DNA of 23,481 bases, taken from a virus. Where the stretch lies: UHGV virus genome UHGV-0138297. The stretch is one strand, 5' to 3'. The translations under genes and the position numbers were made by a program. Of this stretch, positions 1 through 6,000 are shown piece after piece. How positions within the stretch are numbered: the stretch's first letter is position 1; the number at the start of each line of letters is the position of its first letter. The notes beneath the pieces are model-generated. The model was given only the letters and a program-made list of their open reading frames with translations, ran no database searches and was not told where the DNA came from.

Positions 1-193
1 CATAGTGAAAAGTTGCGAAGGCATCGATACGATCACATTGGCTGTAATGTCTGTCATTTAATTTGCTCCAGATACAAGGAATCGCCGCAGCATGGCTACG
101 GTGAGTATTTGTTTGCTTTTTGCACTACACTTTTTGTGTAGTGCTATCTCTCAAGGCCATAGCCGCTGAGTAGCTACGGTGAATTTTGGGCAT

Positions 194-216
194 AAAAAAA
201 CCCAGCCGAAGCTGGG
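194..216 (-). terminator. Rho-independent terminator (second of a tandem pair downstream of the P63C gene)
   Basis: Plus strand has A-run 194-200, then stem cccagc (201-206), loop cgaa, stem gctggg (211-216). Read on the minus strand this is a GC hairpin followed by a U7 tract. Confidence 0.6.
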
Positions 217-266
217 TCGTTGCGTTGGTTATCTGTCAGTAGTTATGTACTGGCTGAAGGATTTGT

Positions 267-289
267 ACAAAAACCCACCTGACGGTGGG
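267..289 (-). terminator. Rho-independent terminator immediately 3' of the P63C gene
   Basis: Plus strand acaaaaa (267-273), stem cccacc (274-279), loop tgac, stem ggtggg (284-289). On the minus strand the hairpin is followed by UUUUUGU. It lies 9 nt past the stop at 298. Confidence 0.65.
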
Positions 290-297
290 TTTCATAA

Positions 298-1266
298 TTA
301 GATTTCTGGTTTCATTCTTCCAAAAACCTTTTCTATTCCTTTTTCGTATTCTTCTCTTGTCTCACTCATCGCTGCGACCCCAAGAAGCTTACCGATATGC
401 TGACGCAAAGCCTTGACACCAATTTCAGAAAGGAACAGATGCAACTTATCAGATTGTTTTCCGTTCTCGTCTCGGCTGGCTCGAATCTGTTCAAGGATTT
501 TACCTTTACTCTTTGCTAGCGGGGTGTATATCTGCATGTTGGTTAGCTGCCCAAAACGAATAGGCCGTCCTTTCTCTGGCCTATTCAGGCCGTACAGTCG
601 ATACCACTCCTCGTATAGCTCATCTGGAAATTCCTTTTCATATTGACGAGCTTCTTCACGAACAAACGCTTTGAACTCGTCAATGACAGCCTGAACTTCT
701 GGACGATAACCAGCAAGCGCATACGCAACCCCCTTAATTCCCGCCTTAGCGGAGGCATTAATAAGTCTCTGTGCTGCGGCGGCTGCCTTTAACCGTGATT
801 GTGGTAGATCGTCATTATCTTTGGCTTCTATTAGTGCCCTACCAATATCAACAATTGCTGTAATGTCATAACCTAACGCTTGATGAACGGTTTTAGACTT
901 CGAAGTAAGTTGAAATTTATAGGGATTTTCCATTTTTCGCTGCAATTCTAGATCTCGGTATTTGCTCATATACTGAGCGCCAAGTAGTTGATCTAAATCC
1001 CTGGCATGTTCACCAATCCCTAGCAACTGAGATAATCCAGTTTTCGTAACAACGACAGTTTTCGACTCGTCATCCAGTACATAACATTCAGCATCAATGC
1101 CAAAATCATCTAAAAAGTTACCACGATGAGTTGCCCTGAGAATCTTACTTTTCCATCTTGCAGCAGCTGCTTTCTTTGCTATTTCAGAACGCTGCTCTTT
1201 AGTCAGCGACTTTGCGCGAGCGATCCCGCCCTTAGCTTTCCCTTCACTACTTTTCTTTTCTGTCAT
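298..1266 (-). CDS. P63C-domain phage protein (function unknown) with a basic N-terminal segment; accessory (moron) gene
   Basis: 322-aa ORF. SD AAGGTG lies 8 nt upstream of the ATG at 1266. The N-terminal 45 residues are Lys/Arg/Ala-rich (KAKGGIARAKSLTKEQRSEIAKKAAAARWKSK). The P63C family assignment is from memory of prophage annotations, not from a search. The gene has its own promoter and terminators. Confidence 0.75.
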   Translation of the reverse strand: MTEKKSSEGKAKGGIARAKSLTKEQRSEIAKKAAAARWKSKILRATHRGNFLDDFGIDAECYVLDDESKTVVVTKTGLSQLLGIGEHARDLDQLLGAQYMSKYRDLELQRKMENPYKFQLTSKSKTVHQALGYDITAIVDIGRALIEAKDNDDLPQSRLKAAAAAQRLINASAKAGIKGVAYALAGYRPEVQAVIDEFKAFVREEARQYEKEFPDELYEEWYRLYGLNRPEKGRPIRFGQLTNMQIYTPLAKSKGKILEQIRASRDENGKQSDKLHLFLSEIGVKALRQHIGKLLGVAAMSETREEYEKGIEKVFGRMKPEI

Positions 1267-1267
1267 A

Positions 1268-1356
1268 ATGCAAGCACCTTGTTGTGATATATGCTTGCAT
1301 TATATACACTGTACACACATACAAGCAAGCATAAAACCAAAACAAAATGCTTGCAT
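1268..1356. promoter_or_regulatory. Divergent control region: two copies of a ~33-bp palindrome (ATGCAAGCA-N13/14-TGCTTGCAT) overlapping a predicted sigma70 promoter for the P63C gene
   Basis: Palindrome 1 has arms at 1268-1277 and 1291-1300; palindrome 2 at 1323-1332 and 1347-1356 (one mismatch each). On the minus strand a perfect -10 TATAAT (plus 1299-1304) sits 18 nt from -35 TTGCTT (plus 1323-1328). The -10 overlaps the right arm of palindrome 1 and the -35 overlaps the left arm of palindrome 2. Confidence 0.55.
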
Positions 1357-1421
1357 TACAACCGCGCTACTCCAACTACACATTATCATCTGGTATCCTG
1401 CACAAAACTAAGGAGGTTGGT

Positions 1422-1750
1422 GTGCTTGAATGGTTTCTGTTGGCTGCATTAGTCGTTTCTGGTTTGGTGTATGAGTATCGAATGCACTCTCTAACAAAAA
1501 AATAGGAATTCTAGAAAACGAATATTGTGCTCTCAAATCCTCACTGGAACGTGAGCAAGGGGACTTAAAAATCTCTCTGTCTAGCATTGAGCGTTCTATA
1601 GAGAGCTTAGAGGATAAGGTTGATCGTATAAAGAATGAGGATATTCATGATATTAAGGACGACATATCCTTCTTAAAATCTTGGTTGAAAAATGTTGGGA
1701 AAATTGCCACATCAACACGAGATAAGCTCAATCCATCCATGGATGACTAA
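1422..1750 (+). pseudogene. Small membrane-anchored coiled-coil protein gene, split by a -1 frame change at an A7 tract (pseudogene, or programmed frameshift/slippage)
   Basis: Strong SD AGGAGG (1411-1416) 5 nt before GTG 1422. Frame 0 encodes a 27-codon hydrophobic peptide (VLEWFLLAALVVSGLVYEYRMHSLTKK) ending at TAG 1503-1505. The -1 frame is open from 1475 to TAA 1748-1750 (about 83 codons, heptad-like, charged) and has no plausible in-frame start. The frames meet at A AAA AAA (1496-1502). The region is AT-rich. Confidence 0.55.
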
Positions 1751-3910
1751 TTACTCCTGTGCCATTCCGCTTAGCGATGCCACAATTCCAGCTCTTGCTA
1801 AACGCTGGAACTCTTCGTTTCCTAGTGCCTCGCGTATTGCTTTTACGGCGGCCTTATTTGCCATAAATCTGCGTTCCGCTGCCGCTAATGCTTCTTTGCT
1901 TCCGCCTGCTCTTACTGCTTTAGTGGCTTCCTGAACTGCTTTCTCTATCGCATACCGACCACTACGTGTGGTGGCAATTTTAGATACAGCGCCTTTTAAC
2001 CCAGCGCCAACTAAAGCACCTGCGGCAGCGCCTGCAATGCCTCCTCCAGCGCCACCAACAATGGCACCTGATGTTGAGTTGGCAATTGCATTTAACACTG
2101 TTGATGTGACGTTGGATAAACCAGCATCCAGATCGCGTAGTACATTGGCAGTTCTCCCTGTTCTTTCAATATACTGCTGAGGTTTCACTGCTGCTCTTGC
2201 AAGAGTGCCATACGCATCAGCAATTCTTCCAAGCTCTGAGGAATATCTGCTAATGGCTTTTACATTTTGTGGAGTGAGTATCTCTGCGATATGGTTAATT
2301 CCTGCTGCATCAGCTTTGCCACCACGTACACCATGCGAGATGGCATCCTGCAACATTGATGATATAGCAGGAACACGCTCTGATTCTGGCAGCGCGCGGA
2401 TCATAGAATGGAATCCAGCAGGACCATTAAGACCTTTAGCTGACGATGATTGAAGGGATTTTACTCCATTCGTAATCAGTGCATCTGTTGCCAAATCACG
2501 CCCGAAAACAGACTCTGCACTCTCTTGTGCTGATAACCTCGCTTTAGACAGATCATTAGCTTTTTGCCAGTCATCAAGAAATCCGCCGTTTTCCGCCATT
2601 GTGCGCATATCATCAGTAATTGCCCGGCGTATTTCCCCTGCTCTCCTTGCCGCATTTGCCTCTCCGCTACGCTTATATTTTTGCTCCGCATCAGCAAATT
2701 TCGCTCTCCATGCTTTCATGCCATCAAATGTTACTCCACCTTGATTGTTTGCCTGAACAAACTGTTTCATTTCAGGAGTAAGCGGTATGCCGGCAGATCG
2801 CTCTGCCTGAATAACGGCATTACCATTTAGCATTCTTGCTTTTTGATTTGGCATTGTTGACCGTACGTCATCCCATGCCGCGCGCTCGGCATCCTTCATC
2901 TGATCAAGATTTTGAAGAATCCTTTGTTTTATAGCCGCACTTTTTTCTGATGCCGTTCCAGATGCGGCCCCAAATTCATCAAGGTTTCGACTTAACTTTG
3001 ATGATATTTCGTTAAATGCTGCCTGATGGGCGTCCTGAACAATTCCTGGTGTTGATGCCAATGCGCCTTCGGCTTGTGCAATTCCACGACTTCCAGATCG
3101 CATTCCTGGTGTTAATGCGTTTATATCAATTCCAGCAGACTCAGCCGCTTTTGCTACATCTTCGGACACATTAGCGGCCTGACTGGCAATTGACTGACGC
3201 CCAGCACCTGACTTTGCCATCCTGGAAACATCATTAGCAGAATTCAGTGCTGCACCACCAAGAGCCTGTGAAACCCTTGGCGCAATAACGCGCCCGACAC
3301 CTGAAAGAACGCCTTGAGCACCAATATTGATACCACCGTTAATGGCAGCATTTTGTGCAAAGTCGCCCTCCTGATTTGCAGCATCAGCAAGAGAACCTGC
3401 AATCATGTTTCCTGCGGAACCGATATCTCCAGCGAGCTTTGCTGTCGCTCCAGCAGCTTTTGCCGCTGTGCCAATTGGCAGGAGATACCCACCAAATGTT
3501 TCACCGGCTTGCGCCCAACGGTCTGTCGGTCGATCGACAGGGCGATAAACATCATCCAAAACCTTGGGGCCACCAAGCCCATGGCTGATTGCATTAATCA
3601 GACTTGCGCCACCCTGCAATACGTCAAATGGTATGTTTACCAGACCACGACCAGCCTGTTCTGCAATTTGCCCTGCACTTTGACCACCTGTGAGCCAATC
3701 GCCAGCTTGTTGCATCAATGATGGTTCTTCTTTCTGCTGCTGATGCGGAGGGTATGCTGCATAAAACTGATCTCTTGCTTCAGCCCATTTGTCACCAGCC
3801 TTAGGGGCAACAACCTCATCAAAATATTGCGCTTGAGCCTGTGCTTTCTGTTCTTCAGTTAACGCCTGATACTGTGGAGAGGCGATAACATCTTTCCATG
3901 CTTTAGCCAT
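1751..3910 (-). CDS. Ejection (DNA-transfer) protein, P22 gp16-like
   Basis: 719-aa ORF in the P22 gene order 14-7-20-16, last of the ejection-protein trio. It has Gly/Ala-rich tracts. Its start overlaps the gp20-like stop. Confidence 0.85.
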
Positions 3911-5298
3911 TAATCACCCCATAGTGAAGAAAAGTTACTGCTGGCTGCTGGCTGTGATACCTGTGCAGGTTGAGATTGCTGCCGCTGAGATTTACCAACA
4001 TTAACGTTATATTGTTGGTTGTAATTGTTGGTGTATTCCTGAATCTCACGAATCGACTGCTGCATAGCCTCCGGGCTTGAATAGTCAACCTGCGGCATCC
4101 CCTGAAAATACATCTTCGCTTCTGCAACGGTGTTAATACCACTGGCACCCATGTCCCTTGCTGCCGCCACACCCTGTTTCTGCATTCTGCCCTGAATACG
4201 TTGTGCTGAGTTATATAACTGGCGCTGCTCTTTTCCCGTTAATCGGCTGCGAACATCAGCACCAATTGCTGGATTACCTGCACCGCCTGTCATTCCTGTC
4301 ATGAAATCGAGAGCAGAAGCGTCTGCATTTGCGATCGCGTCGATATCCTTCTTCATGGCATAGTTTTGTGCTGATGCAGACGATGTTGCCGGCGCAGCGA
4401 TTGAACTGGCAGGAACGCGAACCATATTCCCCTCGTTGTCGATGCCTTCGTAGAACGCATTAGCCCCAGCGCCGTGAAGTTTCCCTCCTACCGTTACAGT
4501 TCTGCCATCTGATAACTGAACTGTACGCTCATCATTCCCAGCGGTTCCTCTTGTTGACGCTCGCTGCATTGCCAAATCCTGCCCGCGTCGCGCAGTAGAA
4601 GCAGATAAGTCCTGACCGCGCATCGTGATGTTCTGACCTCGTGCTGTTAGCGCCTCTCCAGCCTGATTGCTGCGGATTGTCTCTGCCAGCCTGCCTCGGT
4701 CAATTTCACGACCAGCCATCTTGTCCTGAACATTGAAGTAATCAATCGGACCAAGAGCAGCCATCCCAAGGTGATCAACAAACTCACCAAATCCTGAAGG
4801 ATTCTGCTGATACATCTGAGCAACGCTGTTAGGGTCAACACCGACGCGAGTCAGTTCCTTGGCGTTGTTTTGCAGCCATGATTGCATTGCTTCTGGAGAC
4901 GATGACGCAAGGCGTGCGCCAGCCGCTAAGGTGCCGATAGAATTACGCTGGTCTTCATCAATGAATCCCATGCCTTTACGAACGGATTCAATCTGGTCTG
5001 GATATTGAGTAGCCAACTGACGCAAAGCACCGCGATCACCAGACGCATAAGCATTAGCGTACGCCTGCTGAAATTCTTTCTGCCGCTGAGCCTGCTTCTC
5101 CTGCTGAAACACCCCCGCAATACCTGAAAGGCCTTGCAAAGCAGTCAGCCCAACATTGTTAGCGCCTGAACGCTCAATATCATTGTTCTGCCTGATAAGC
5201 TGAAGCGTATTGCCGATGTCATTTACGCTCGGAGCGTTTGAGTTGACGCCGCCGATACCAGCCAACAATCCGCCATTTGATCCTTGCCAAGTAGCCAT
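3910..5298 (-). CDS. Ejection protein, P22 gp20-like
   Basis: 462 aa (P22 gp20 is about 471 aa). Position between the gp7-like and gp16-like genes. Gln/Ala-rich low-complexity sequence typical of ejection proteins. Confidence 0.85.
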
Positions 5299-5307
5299 GA
5301 TTACCCC

Positions 5308-6000
5308 TTAAAACAACGAGCCAAGCAATCCGATACCAGCACCAATGCCAGCGCCCCAAGGTGTTGATGTTCCCAAAAGGCTGGCAAGACCTGCACCGGC
5401 AATCGCACCAGACGTGCCACCGCTAATTGCAGTCTGAAGACTTGATGGTTTATTGGCATTAGCAGCGGCAAGAGCTGCGCTTTGCTGTGCAATGCTGCTC
5501 ATGTTGTTGGCGTACGTCTGCCCGGCGTTTGCCTGACCTTGCAGAGCACCAAGCCCAACGTTTGCCAGATTGTTGTAATTGCTCATCTGGTTTGATAACC
5601 AAGACTGACCGAGAGTCGGCGCGATCGTAGCCAGTTGATTGCTTGTGGCTGTCGAACCAAGTCCTCCCGTAGCCTCCGCAGCAGCAAGACTCTGGTAACG
5701 AGCCTGACCTGCAAGGTCTTTATACTGCTGAGAGTTGTAATACTGATTAAGTGCCTGCCCCTGACCTTCCAAACTGGAAAGGTTCTGAAGCTGGTTAACA
5801 TACTGCTCCGCAAGAGGCGTGAACGGAGCAAGGTTTTTCATGATCGTCTGCCACTGCTGATTTTGCAGGTCTGCGGCATACTTCTGAGCTTCTGCGGCAT
5901 ACTTTGCACTTTTATCAGAACTGCCACCTTTCCCGCCTTTTTCATGGCAATAAGGTTCCTCGCCGCGCAGTTTTCTGCCCAGCTTAAATGCATATAACAT
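5308..6000 (-). CDS. Ejection protein, P22 gp7-like
   Basis: 230 aa (P22 gp7 is 229 aa). N-terminus MLYAFKLGRKLRGEEP... and Gly-rich C-terminus. Synteny. Confidence 0.85.
   Translation of the reverse strand: MLYAFKLGRKLRGEEPYCHEKGGKGGSSDKSAKYAAEAQKYAADLQNQQWQTIMKNLAPFTPLAEQYVNQLQNLSSLEGQGQALNQYYNSQQYKDLAGQARYQSLAAAEATGGLGSTATSNQLATIAPTLGQSWLSNQMSNYNNLANVGLGALQGQANAGQTYANNMSSIAQQSAALAAANANKPSSLQTAISGGTSGAIAGAGLASLLGTSTPWGAGIGAGIGLLGSLF

What the first reader, a model, noticed from the sequence alone, without database searches (positions are those of the whole stretch)
194..1750. Self-contained accessory (moron) locus downstream of gp16: P63C-domain protein plus divergent membrane/coiled-coil gene
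This is the position where P22-like phages carry superinfection-exclusion and immunity cargo (sieA and immI in P22). Here it holds a 322-aa P63C-domain protein of unknown function with a basic, possibly nucleic-acid-binding N-terminus, its own near-consensus promoter, twin palindromic operator-like sites and two tandem terminators. It is paired head-to-head with an AT-rich gene for a single-TM coiled-coil protein. That plus-strand gene ends stop-to-stop against gp16 (TAA at 1748-1750, then the gp16 stop at 1751-1753). Autonomous expression signals inside a late structural operon are the signature of lysogen-expressed defence or exclusion modules. This is my best candidate for an uncharacterised two-gene system; I know of no characterised function for this pair.
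Basis: partly seen in the sequence, partly recalled or inferred. Interest (0 to 1): 0.72.

Follow-up and report, generated by a model that had tools for sequence, protein, structure and literature searches.

The report
Mosaic phage moron with self-regulated P63C gene
The interval is the known variable "ant moron" of a P22/HK620-like phage, built from independently shuffled parts rather than a two-gene system; one gene is broken here, and the other is an uncharacterised, apparently self-regulated DNA-binding-type gene that also travels on a transposon in many bacterial phyla.

Summary
The 322-aa P63C ORF (298-1266, minus), the repeats upstream of it, two terminator hairpins, low GC and the stop-to-stop junction with gp16 are all real.

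The plus-strand gene is not intact. It is hkcB of phage HK620, frameshifted here by an A7 tract (1496-1502). All 82 complete E. coli genomes with full-length hkcB, and 31 other viral contigs, have A8.

The "two-gene system" reading fails:
- P63C pairs with hkcB, sieA or other genes.
- hkcB mostly occurs without P63C.
- hkcB always sits beside HK620-class gp16.
- Both terminators also exist in HK620, which has no P63C.

New here: the P63C gene carries four ATGCWWGCAT sites that cover its -35 and -10 and abut its start codon. The same layout precedes homologues in 64 of 80 species genomes from many phyla. Variant protein N-termini go with variant sites.

In 48 of those 80 loci the gene lies inside an IS1-like transposon. 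In 24 of these both 20-bp inverted repeats were found, and all 22 checkable have perfect 8-bp target duplications. In other prophages, homologues sit directly after cI, the rexAB/bstA slot.

Function remains untested. My best guess is an autorepressed, lysogen-expressed DNA-binding accessory protein.

The parts
1..3 (-). Start codon of the tailspike (gene 9) homologue; the gene runs off the window.
   Evidence: The window begins CAT. Bases 1-90 align to the annotated tailspike 5' ends of HK620 and of the E. coli 2018-10-1CC prophage.
92..170 (.). Insertion of about 78 bp relative to HK620 and E. coli 2018-10-1CC. It holds a 9-bp-stem hairpin (122-144) and is flanked by an imperfect 29-nt direct repeat (81-109 / 159-187). 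Role unknown.
   Evidence: Hairpin -14.9 kcal/mol, z -4.85.
199..218 (-). Intrinsic terminator equivalent to HK620 'tANT'. It is a remnant of the deleted ant gene; bases 108-252 are 84% identical to the P22 ant 3' end.
270..292 (-). Hairpin AAACCCACC-GUCA-GGUGGGUUU followed by UUUUUGU, 6 nt after the P63C stop. It is equivalent to HK620 'tMNT' and here serves as the P63C terminator.
   Evidence: I7; -16.2 kcal/mol, z -4.1.
298..1266 (-). P63C-family gene, 322 aa. It is 99.7% identical to the protein PGAP annotates as WP_000136767.1 in E. coli prophage loci L003-L006.
409..672 (-). Region encoding the Pfam P63C domain (residues 199-286).
1150..1236 (-). Region encoding the conserved basic N-terminal motif KGGxARAxxLTxEQRSEIAKKAAAARW (residues 11-39). 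Inferred to be the operator-recognition element.
   Evidence: Invariant G13 G14 A16 R17 R26 A30 R37 W38. The motif varies together with the operator type. The same motif ends a small ORF in the transposon form.
1268..1277 (.). Site 4 (GTGCTTGCAT on the minus strand), ending 1 nt before the ATG at 1266-1264.
1291..1300 (.). Site 3 (ATGCAAGCAT on the minus strand), overlapping the -10 TATAAT (1299-1304).
1323..1332 (.). Site 2 (ATGCTTGCTT on the minus strand, one mismatch), containing the -35-like TTGCTT (1323-1328).
1347..1356 (.). Site 1 (ATGCAAGCAT on the minus strand), upstream of the promoter.
1422..1505 (+). hkcB 5' fragment: GTG start (SD at 1410-1416), 27 codons that include the hydrophobic N-terminal segment, then a premature TAG.
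   Evidence: (phrog_5962 positions 1-27).
1496..1502 (+). A7 tract (A8 in relatives). This is the frameshift site. A_AAA_AAA followed by TAG is also a potential -1 slip site.
1502..1750 (+). hkcB 3' part (coiled coil plus conserved C-terminus), in the -1 frame relative to the start.
   Evidence: phrog_5962 positions 25-109, E=8.7e-48.
1751..3910 (-). gp16 DNA-transfer (ejection) protein of the HK620 class. It is context, and the constant neighbour of hkcB.

Best explanation
Window 194-1750 is the residual 'ant moron' of an HK620-like member of the P22 group. It is a mosaic of three parts that assort independently, not a two-gene system.

(1) hkcB (1422-1750). It encodes a small protein with a hydrophobic N-terminus, a coiled coil and a conserved C-terminus. 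It occupies the SieA slot and always travels with the HK620-class gp16. Here it is inactivated by loss of one A from an A8 tract, which could be a real mutation or an assembly error.

(2) A P63C-family single-gene cassette (about 269-1421). Four ATGCWWGCAT sites cover the gene's -35 and -10, and the last one abuts the start codon.
- Inferred: the protein binds these sites through its conserved basic N-terminal helices and represses its own promoter.
- Inferred consequence: low, host-independent expression, including in the lysogen.
- In late infection, read-through transcripts could fold sites 3 and 4 into a hairpin over the AUG.
- The same cassette is carried inside an IS1-like transposon in many phyla. 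In other prophages it sits in the rexAB/bstA slot after cI.
- My best guess for the downstream role is a DNA-directed accessory function that benefits the lysogen or the element, such as exclusion or abortive infection of competing phage.

(3) The tMNT and tANT terminators, left behind by a deleted immI region.

The anatomy is shown by the data. Autoregulation is a strong inference. The biological role is a guess.
For: Mosaic structure and independence:
- Homology to relatives breaks at about 253/269 and about 1424/1430.
- Partners of P63C vary: hkcB, sieA, a 164-aa SieA-like protein, a 122-aa protein.
- HK620 has hkcB and both terminators but no P63C.
- Counts in complete E. coli genomes: 46 with P63C, 82 with hkcB, about 12 with both adjacent.
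- Of 31 hkcB-bearing viral contigs, 21 have no P63C gene and 10 carry one of three alleles (99-100%, 54% or 28% identity).
- hkcB lies next to HK620-class gp16 in every hkcB locus fetched. The sieA and other-partner loci have a gp16 only 35-42% identical.

Frameshift:
- A7 against A8.
- 82 of 82 E. coli genomes and 31 of 31 other viral contigs have A8. The only A7 contig is the window's own source.

Operators:
- The four sites cluster at 1268-1356.
- In the 53 loci fetched up, exact motifs occur only directly upstream of P63C genes.
- The same four-site layout is present in 64 of 80 species genomes across phyla.
- Spacers vary while the sites are conserved, and the one variable stem position shows no pairing covariation.
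- Operator type and N-terminal motif change together in the Acidobacteria, 933W and SI8 clades.

Mobility and hot spots:
- An IS1-like DDE gene lies adjacent in 48 of 80 loci.
- Both 20-bp inverted repeats were found around 24 of these units, and 22 of 22 checkable elements have perfect 8-bp target duplications.
- Homologues lie directly after cI in Klebsiella prophages, ST104 and SI8. BstA occupies the same slot in BTP1 (PMC8585504).
- Other homologues lie after Q and before the lysis genes, or in the nin region.

Fold: weak structural hits to winged-helix proteins and to Bro-N / antirepressor-N proteins.
Against: - There is no experimental or transcriptomic evidence for expression, DNA binding or any phenotype.
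- The promoter scan did not call a promoter; the -35 is weak.
- The repeats could act as RNA hairpins rather than protein sites. Because the stems never vary, this cannot be excluded.
- No PADLOC hit and no detectable homology to BstA.
- The transposon context fits a role in regulating the element just as well as a benefit to the host.
- In sieA-partner loci the shared sequence runs up to the partner's start codon. A regulatory link between P63C and whichever gene sits opposite is therefore not excluded.
Confidence: 0.65

Rival explanations
1. One reading: P63C and the divergent HkcB protein form one two-gene, lysogen-expressed defence or exclusion system.
For: - They are arranged head to head around a shared 155-bp intergenic region.
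- 10 of 31 hkcB-bearing viral contigs carry some P63C-family allele next to hkcB, in three different alleles.
- The P63C module's conserved sequence extends to the partner's SD and start codon.
Against: - Partners are interchangeable: sieA, a 122-aa protein, hkcB.
- 21 of 31 hkcB contigs, and HK620 itself, lack P63C.
- P63C homologues stand alone after cI, in the nin region, after Q, and in transposons.
- hkcB is frameshifted here while P63C is intact.
Confidence: 0.07
2. The four repeats act mainly as RNA, not as protein-binding DNA. Sites 3 and 4 (and sites 1 and 2) would form fold-back hairpins that block translation of P63C on read-through transcripts from the late operon or from PRM, as IS10 does against outside transcription.
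For: - The hairpin formed by sites 3 and 4 is stable (-16.5 kcal/mol, z -3.5). It places the SD in the loop and the AUG at the foot of the stem.
- The -10 overlaps the 5' arm, so transcripts from the gene's own promoter would lack that arm.
- The gene always sits downstream of strong foreign transcription.
Against: - The sequence of the arms, not merely their complementarity, is conserved across phyla. The one variable stem position shows no covariation.
- Sites 1 and 2 lie upstream of the promoter.
- Site type changes together with the protein's N-terminal motif.
- No Rfam family matches.
- This reading is compatible with the operator model rather than exclusive of it.
Confidence: 0.2
3. P63C is an accessory or regulatory protein of the IS1-like transposon, for example a repressor of the divergent transposase. 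Under this view the phage copies are stranded cargo with no defence role.
For: - In 48 of 80 loci the gene is divergent from an IS1-like DDE gene, with the four sites lying between the two genes.
- Intact elements carry 8-bp target duplications.
- A third small ORF carries the same basic motif.
Against: - Enterobacterial prophage copies lack the transposase and the inverted repeats, yet remain intact. They are 99-100% conserved across many E. coli lineages and 70-90% across genera, which argues for selection on the gene itself.
- They recur at lysogen-expressed hot spots.
Confidence: 0.2
4. P63C is an antirepressor-like transcription regulator (a Bro-N/KilA-N-type DNA-binding domain plus a C-terminal interaction domain) that modulates the induction or immunity of this or co-resident prophages.
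For: - It lies in the ant moron, and after cI in other phages.
- The weak Foldseek hits are enriched for Bro-N, Ant-N, KilA and Rha proteins.
- From memory only: Pfam P63C was defined together with antirepressor domains (Iyer et al. 2002). I could not retrieve that paper.
Against: - All structural hits are below significance (E >= 2.6e-3).
- No Bro-N or KilA-N HMM hit in any of 35 family members.
- P63C coexists with a complete mnt-arc-ant set in phage 611R6 and in locus L044.
Confidence: 0.12
5. The A7 tract in hkcB is functional. Either it is a programmed -1 ribosomal frameshift at A_AAA_AAA-TAG, or it is a phase-variable switch that still allows some full-length HkcB to be made.
For: - A -1 slip on A_AAA_AAA would give exactly the protein encoded by the A8 allele.
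- Other assemblies carry A6, A7 and A10 variants. The A7 and A10 proteins (P0254, P0256) carry W where this window's alternative frame has a TGA stop, so a TGA>TGG change has apparently opened that N-terminal frame.
Against: A7 with this configuration is a singleton from one metagenome assembly, against 113 A8 copies. Homopolymer errors are common.
Confidence: 0.08

Closest known systems
The 'ant moron' (gene 16 to gene 9 interval) of P22-like phages, and in particular its HK620 version (hkcB, hkcC, tMNT, tANT)
   Same: Same position. Same hkcB gene, abutting gp16 stop to stop. Same two terminator hairpins and the same remnant of the ant 3' end (PMC2629481).
   Different: HK620 has hkcC where this window has the P63C cassette. 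hkcB is intact in HK620. This window has an extra 78-bp insert.
BstA of Salmonella prophage BTP1 (single-protein abortive infection with the 'aba' DNA self-immunity element)
   Same: - A single protein of about 310-320 aa with its own promoter and terminator.
- P63C homologues occupy the identical slot between cI and N.
- A DNA element spanning the promoter and the start of the gene; aba comprises 29 bp upstream plus the first 34 bp of bstA (PMC8585504).
- A possible KilA-N/Bro-N-like N-terminal domain.
   Different: - No detectable homology: hhalign probability 6-12%, no PF26567, no PADLOC hit.
- No phenotype is known for P63C.
- The P63C sites are shared by the majority clade across phyla, with distinct variants in the Acidobacteria and 933W clades. 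aba works as a cognate element for its own BstA.
SieA of P22 (inner-membrane superinfection-exclusion protein that blocks the gp16/gp20 ejection conduit)
   Same: HkcB occupies the same slot next to gp16, on the opposite strand. It has a hydrophobic N-terminus. sieA replaces hkcB next to the same P63C cassette in other prophages. HK620-type gp16 is the class that partly escapes SieA (PMC10461980).
   Different: SieA has about 4 TM segments, 164 aa and an FnRYPnEAnnFNK motif. HkcB is 109 aa with one short hydrophobic segment plus a coiled coil, and shows no sequence similarity. HkcB function has not been tested.
IS1-family insertion sequences carrying passenger genes (transporter IS)
   Same: In many phyla the P63C gene lies between 20-bp inverted repeats that start with GGT, next to an IS1-like DDE transposase, with 8-bp target duplications.
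   Different: The transposase scores below NCBI's IS1 cutoff (62-68 bits against 100). The window's copy has no transposase and no inverted repeats. I could not check ISfinder for an existing name.
Autoregulated controller modules of mobile elements, such as C-protein/C-box control of restriction-modification systems and InsA of IS1
   Same: A self-contained gene plus operator set overlapping its own promoter. The arrangement is portable across hosts and conserved during horizontal transfer.
   Different: The protein is far larger (322 aa) and has an extra conserved domain of about 280 aa with unknown role. No homology was tested or claimed.

Membership tests
Pfam P63C (PF10546) / PHROG 2384 | HMM match above the curated threshold | tested here: met
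   52.7 bits against a cutoff of 26.1, E=6.8e-14. phrog_2384 E=1.9e-104 over residues 6-321. All 35 aligned relatives match P63C.
HkcB (phrog_5962) | Sequence homology to the 109-aa HK620 HkcB | tested here: met
   Two fragments match profile positions 1-27 and 25-109 (E=1.9e-7 and 8.7e-48). DNA is 97% identical to relatives.
HkcB (phrog_5962) | Intact open reading frame | tested here: not met
   A7 in place of A8 gives TAG after codon 27. All 113 other copies examined have A8.
Two-gene system (P63C + HkcB) | Consistent co-occurrence of the two genes | tested here: not met
   About 12 of 46 P63C genomes and about 12 of 82 hkcB genomes carry both. 21 of 31 hkcB contigs lack P63C. Partners are interchangeable.
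Moron (independently expressed insertion in a phage operon) | Present or absent among otherwise syntenic relatives | tested here: met
   HK620 lacks it, 611R6 and E. coli prophages have it, and the breakpoints are sharp.
Moron (independently expressed insertion in a phage operon) | Own promoter and terminator | tested here: inconclusive
   The terminator hairpin 6 nt after the stop is strong, but it is also present in HK620. The -10 is TATAAT and the -35 only 3 of 6, and the scan made no call. Conservation of the layout across 64 loci supports a promoter. There are no transcript data.
P22 immI (mnt-arc-ant) | Presence of the mnt, arc and ant genes | tested here: not met
   Only the ant 3' remnant (108-252, 84% identical to P22) and the tMNT/tANT hairpins remain.
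BstA abortive-infection family | Homology to BstA (PF26567 C-terminal domain; KilA-N-like N-terminal domain) | tested here: not met
   hhalign probability 6% (single sequence) and 12% (profile against profile). No PADLOC hit. Pfam finds only P63C.
BstA abortive-infection family | Location directly downstream of the prophage repressor | tested here: not met
   Not met for the window copy, which lies in the ant moron. It is met for homologues in Klebsiella prophages, ST104 and SI8, compared with BTP1.
BstA abortive-infection family | Abortive-infection phenotype and a cognate DNA self-immunity element | not testable with these tools
   Requires phage challenge. Repeats spanning the promoter and gene start exist, but their role is unknown.
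SieA superinfection exclusion (considered for HkcB) | Multi-pass inner-membrane protein with the FnRYPnEAnnFNK motif | tested here: not met
   HkcB has one short hydrophobic segment and no such motif. The SieA proteins from L004 and L005 show 4 hydrophobic segments (motif from PMC10461980).
Bro-N / KilA-N DNA-binding domain proteins | Recognisable Bro-N or KilA-N fold or HMM match in residues about 43-135 | tested here: inconclusive
IS1-family transposon cargo | Adjacent DDE transposase, terminal inverted repeats and target-site duplication | tested here: not met
   Not met in the window: no DDE gene and no inverted-repeat match. Among species genomes a DDE gene is adjacent in 48 of 80 loci, and 22 of 22 checkable elements have 8-bp duplications.
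Known anti-phage defence systems (PADLOC-DB v2) | HMM match to any catalogued defence protein | tested here: not met
   No hit at E <= 1 for P63C or for either HkcB fragment.

The most novel reading that the evidence does not exclude
The P63C cassette (one 320-aa protein plus its four ATGCWWGCAT sites) may be a previously unrecognised, pan-bacterial, self-regulated single-protein system that acts on competing phage or mobile DNA. Its logic would resemble BstA: a DNA-binding protein whose own cis sites double as a self-recognition or self-immunity element. It would be spread by an IS1-like transposon and repeatedly captured by temperate phages at their lysogen-expressed hot spots (the rexAB/bstA slot, the sieA/ant moron, the Q-lysis junction). 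A side hypothesis is that HkcB is the SieA-equivalent exclusion protein matched to HK620-class gp16.
Probability: 0.25. Interest if true: 0.8.

Novelty: new variant of a known kind. Interest (0 to 1): 0.55.

Why it matters
The locus as such is ordinary. It is the known hypervariable moron of P22-like phages, and one of its two genes is broken in this copy.

What may matter is the P63C cassette:
- The family is sizeable, with 3,219 clusters at 50% identity, and has no published function that I could find.
- It carries an unusually conserved, portable regulatory architecture, and it moves on a transposon across phyla.
- It turns up exactly where temperate phages keep RexAB, BstA and SieA.

This gives a short, testable list: operator binding, autorepression, and phage challenge with a 1.2-kb clone.

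If P63C is a defence or exclusion factor, it would add a widespread single-gene system that current defence catalogues miss. If it is a transposon regulator, it documents how phages recruit transposon cargo as morons.

The strict linkage of hkcB to the SieA-resistant class of gp16 suggests a concrete experiment on the specificity of injection blocking.

Tried and rejected
Searches that gave nothing useful:
- PADLOC, NCBIfam and PDB-sequence searches found nothing for P63C.
- Homology to BstA was tested twice and rejected.
- Pfam scans of all 35 aligned members at E <= 1 gave no Bro-N or KilA-N hit.
- Rfam at E <= 10 gave only spurious miRNA-hairpin matches, far below the gathering scores.
- The sigma-70 scan found no promoter for either gene in 1267-1421. 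I found no convincing plus-strand promoter for hkcB by eye.

Literature:
- Searches for 'P63C', 'P63C domain', 'PF10546', 'L0095' and 'ant moron' gave no functional study.
- The Iyer et al. 2002 paper that defined P63C is not held.
- A search on IS1 passenger genes was uninformative.

Analyses that did not settle a question:
- The ungapped logo of upstream regions was blurred by 1-2 nt spacing differences. MAFFT resolved it.
- My first search for inverted repeats at the transposon ends used windows that were too narrow and failed for most loci. A pattern search then succeeded.
- The small convergent 67-aa gene after P63C in Klebsiella and SI8 prophages is unrelated to the transposon's small basic-motif ORF.
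- RNA covariation could not be used, because the stems are invariant.


Full report
CONTEXT. The minus strand of the first 6 kb encodes homologues of P22 gp7 (5308-6000), gp20 (3910-5298) and an HK620-class gp16 (1751-3910; phrog_770 'DNA transfer protein', E=3e-227). Position 1-3 is the start codon of the tailspike gene. The finding therefore lies in the gene 16 to gene 9 interval. That interval is already described as the hypervariable 'ant moron' of P22-like phages. In P22 it holds sieA, hkcC, mnt, arc and ant, and hkcB is named there as an ORF of unknown function (PMC2629481). The window is 100% identical to IMG/VR contig IMGVR_UViG_3300029162_000071, a metagenome assembly.

CHECK OF THE OBSERVATION. 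The following points are real:
- The 322-aa ORF (298-1266, minus strand) is there and carries a Pfam P63C domain (E=6.8e-14).
- The interval has lower GC than the structural genes.
- The TAA at 1748-1750 abuts the gp16 stop.
- Two minus-strand hairpins with U-runs lie downstream of the P63C stop.
- The operator-like repeats are real.

The plus-strand gene, however, is not intact:
- GTG 1422, behind a strong SD, reads only 27 codons to a TAG.
- The coiled-coil part lies in another frame.
- PHROG 5962 (109 aa) matches the two pieces at positions 1-27 and 25-109.
- Alignment with HK620 hkcB and two other relatives shows a single missing A in an A8 tract.
- All 82 complete E. coli genomes with full-length hkcB have the extra base (342 bases aligned to a 341-base query).
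- So do 31 of 32 viral contigs, and the exception is the window's own contig.

The frameshift is therefore a singleton. It is either a fresh mutation or a homopolymer assembly error. A -1 ribosomal slip on A_AAA_AAA-TAG would regenerate the normal protein. Other assemblies hold A6, A7 and A10 variants. I rate a programmed mechanism as unlikely.

IS IT A TWO-GENE SYSTEM? No.
- Homology between the window and its relatives breaks at about 253/269 and at about 1424/1430. These points delimit a P63C module.
- In other E. coli prophages the P63C gene (protein 99.7% identical to this window's) faces different partners: sieA (L004), a 164-aa SieA-like protein (L005), a 122-aa protein with a signal-peptide-like N-terminus (L006, L007), or hkcB (L002, L003).
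- HK620 carries hkcB with hkcC and no P63C.
- Among complete E. coli genomes, 46 carry the P63C gene, 82 carry hkcB, and about 12 carry both side by side.
- Among 31 hkcB-bearing viral contigs, 21 have no P63C-family gene. The other 10 have one of three alleles: 99-100%, 54%, or a 28%-identical 933W-type allele.
- hkcB is always next to an HK620-class gp16 (66-100% identical to the window's). Loci with sieA or other partners have a gp16 only 35-42% identical.
- The two 'tandem terminators' correspond to the hairpins annotated tMNT and tANT in HK620, so they pre-date the P63C insertion. The 108-252 stretch is a remnant of the ant 3' end.

THE P63C CASSETTE: REGULATORY REGION. On the coding strand the intergenic region holds four 10-bp sites of the form ATGCWWGCAT, in alternating orientation.
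- Site 1: 1347-1356.
- Site 2: 1323-1332, containing the -35-like TTGCTT.
- Site 3: 1291-1300, overlapping the TATAAT -10.
- Site 4: 1268-1277, ending 1 nt before the ATG.

Evidence that the arrangement is specific and conserved:
- Among the 53 loci fetched by that stage, the exact motif occurs only directly upstream of P63C genes.
- The same arrangement precedes an 80%-identical homologue in Klebsiella prophages, a 29%-identical one in Salmonella phage ST104, and a metagenomic homologue with perfectly spaced sites at -77, -54, -31 and -8.
- A scan of one genome per bacterial species returned 80 loci encoding full-length relatives (41-72% identical). They come from Proteobacteria, Myxococcota, Acidobacteriota, Verrucomicrobiota, Firmicutes, Chloroflexi and others.
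- 64 of these 80 loci have at least one site (one mismatch allowed) within 160 nt upstream. 61 have two or more, most in the four-site layout at about -87, -64, -32 and -8, with the start codon embedded in site 4.
- A MAFFT alignment of 43 such regions shows conserved sites, variable spacers, a -10 that ends in the first AT of site 3, and the SD between sites 3 and 4.

Evidence on what recognises the sites:
- At the one stem position that varies (the last base of site 3 against the first base of site 4) there is no pairing covariation: G opposite C in 7 of 16, G opposite T in 8 of 21 (read). What is conserved is the sequence, not the pairing.
- Site type tracks the protein's N-terminal basic motif (KGGxARAxxLTxEQRSEIAKKAAAARW; invariant positions).
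- An Acidobacteria clade with IARAAIQARW has CGGGCAAGTATA inverted repeats.
- The 933W clade has a different motif and ACGTGCAT-type repeats.
- The SI8 clade lacks both the motif and the repeats, and sits 53 nt after the c2 repressor gene.

I infer that the protein binds its own operators through this N-terminal element and represses its own promoter. An RNA fold-back role for sites 3 and 4 (-16.5 kcal/mol, z -3.5) on read-through transcripts is compatible with this and cannot be excluded. No Rfam family matches.

THE P63C CASSETTE: WHERE ELSE IT LIVES. In prophages the family occupies classic accessory-gene slots:
- Directly after the cI-type repressor and before the early-left operon, in Klebsiella prophages, ST104 and SI8. 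This is the slot of rexAB in lambda (from established knowledge of the lambda map). It is also the slot of bstA in BTP1 (PMC8585504).
- In the ant moron next to gp16 (this window; L044).
- Between the Q antiterminator and the holin.
- In the nin region of 933W and SEN34.
- As a lone gene on the opposite strand.

Unexpectedly, in 48 of the 80 species-genome loci the gene is preceded by a divergent DDE transposase of about 300 aa:
- It matches Pfam DDE_Tnp_IS1 and NCBIfam IS1 at E=1e-18, though at 62-68 bits it is below the curated cutoff of 100.
- At least 18 loci also have a small convergent ORF downstream that ends in the same basic motif.
- 20-bp terminal inverted repeats (GGTAGTGNNTCAGTTTGAAW) were found on both sides of 24 of these units. 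In all 22 elements whose flanks could be checked there is a perfect 8-bp target-site duplication. Element sizes are 2.29-3.87 kb.

The P63C gene with its operators is thus the conserved cargo, or an accessory gene, of an active IS1-like transposon. That explains its spread across phyla. The window and the other enterobacterial prophage copies have neither the transposase nor the inverted repeats.

THE P63C PROTEIN.
- The family is sizeable: 1,682 clusters at 90% identity by the word-indexed search, and 3,219 clusters at 50% identity at E <= 1e-3 by the full scan.
- The AlphaFold model (pLDDT 73.6) shows two poorly defined N-terminal helices, a beta-rich domain (residues about 43-135) and a helical C-terminal half.
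- Foldseek against viral models gives only weak hits (E >= 2.6e-3), although many are Bro-N, antirepressor-N, KilA or Rha proteins.
- No Bro-N or KilA-N HMM hit appears in any member.
- There is no detectable homology to BstA and no PADLOC, NCBIfam or PDB-sequence hit.
- I found no paper on its function.

HkcB.
- The family is small: 26 clusters, from E. coli, Salmonella and Klebsiella.
- It has a hydrophobic N-terminus (clearer in the divergent members), a coiled coil, and a strongly conserved C-terminal motif DISFLKSWLKNVGKIATSTRDKLNPSMDD.
- Its slot next to gp16 is shared with SieA and with a protein with a signal-peptide-like N-terminus.
- The SieA paper shows that HK620-type ejection proteins, most likely gp16, partly escape SieA (PMC10461980).
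- That HkcB is the matching exclusion factor for this gp16 class is my inference. Physical linkage alone could explain the association.

VERDICT. The 'moron at the sieA/immI position' reading is right, but it is already known. The 'two-gene system' reading is not supported.

The part worth following up is the P63C cassette. It is an autonomous gene-plus-operator unit, conserved across phyla, carried by an IS1-like transposon, and repeatedly found at the lysogen-expressed hot spots of temperate phages. Autoregulation is a well-supported inference. A protective, DNA-directed role is a guess (about 0.25-0.35), and regulation of the transposon or of a prophage are live alternatives.

Noticed in passing
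L056-L135 (e.g. L114:1990-4276, L063:1973-4275, L074:1240-4280): The P63C-family gene is the conserved cargo of an IS1-like transposon. The unit consists of a divergent DDE transposase of about 300 aa, the four-site intergenic region, the P63C gene and a small convergent ORF. Where both ends were found (24 units) it is bounded by 20-bp inverted repeats GGTAGTGNNTCAGTTTGAAW, with perfect 8-bp target duplications in 22 of 22 checkable elements.
   Followed up: partly
L074:about 4020-4260 (minus strand); also L053, L063, L065, L094, L114: Small ORFs of 57-96 aa downstream of P63C in the transposon form end in the same basic motif (GGLKGGKARAxKLTAEERSEIAKKAAxxRW) that begins the P63C protein. No Pfam or NCBIfam family matches them. 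They may compete for the same DNA sites.
   Followed up: partly
L053, L061, L063, L064, L074, L112, L129, upstream of site 1: A further palindrome of about 16 bp (GCTTGAGCGGTCAAGC-like) precedes site 1 in many transposon-borne copies, next to the transposase start. It is absent from the window.
   Followed up: no
window:92-170: A 78-bp insertion relative to HK620 and E. coli 2018-10-1CC. It is flanked by an imperfect 29-nt direct repeat and holds a stable hairpin at 122-144 (z -4.85) with no U-run. Function unknown.
   Followed up: partly
window:1496-1502 and proteins P0254, P0256, P0266: The hkcB A-tract varies in other public assemblies (A6, A7, A10). The A7 and A10 proteins (P0254, P0256) read W where this window's alternative frame has a TGA stop, implying a TGA>TGG change that opens an alternative N-terminal frame starting at the ATG equivalent to 1430.
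   Followed up: partly
window:1422-3910 and L001-L039: hkcB is always adjacent to the HK620-class gp16. Loci with sieA or other partners have a gp16 only 35-42% identical. HK620-type gp16 is the class reported to partly escape SieA.
   Followed up: partly
L046:3417 (ST104 orf23), L045:3917 (933W L0095), L050:5001 (P0074), L003:3770 (PGAP 134-aa hkcB): Several database start codons look wrong. The ST104 orf23 and P0074 starts fall inside an operator site, and the 933W L0095 start lies about 40 nt too far upstream. PGAP's 134-aa hkcB starts at an ATG inside site 1, whereas the conserved SD plus GTG gives 109 aa.
   Followed up: partly
L018:8300-9330: The 933W L0095-type P63C allele, together with its own upstream repeats, also occurs in the ant moron next to hkcB. 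Three very different alleles therefore use this one slot.
   Followed up: partly
L044:7047-7583: A ClpP-like protease gene (PF00574) sits in the ant moron between a 53%-identical P63C allele and an mnt-like gene in an E. coli prophage.
   Followed up: no
L004:4585, L005:4423: In sieA-partner loci, homology to the window runs up to the partner's GTG start codon (window 1422-1424). Different partner genes therefore share the same SD and 5' leader. This may place them under common control from the P63C intergenic region.
   Followed up: no
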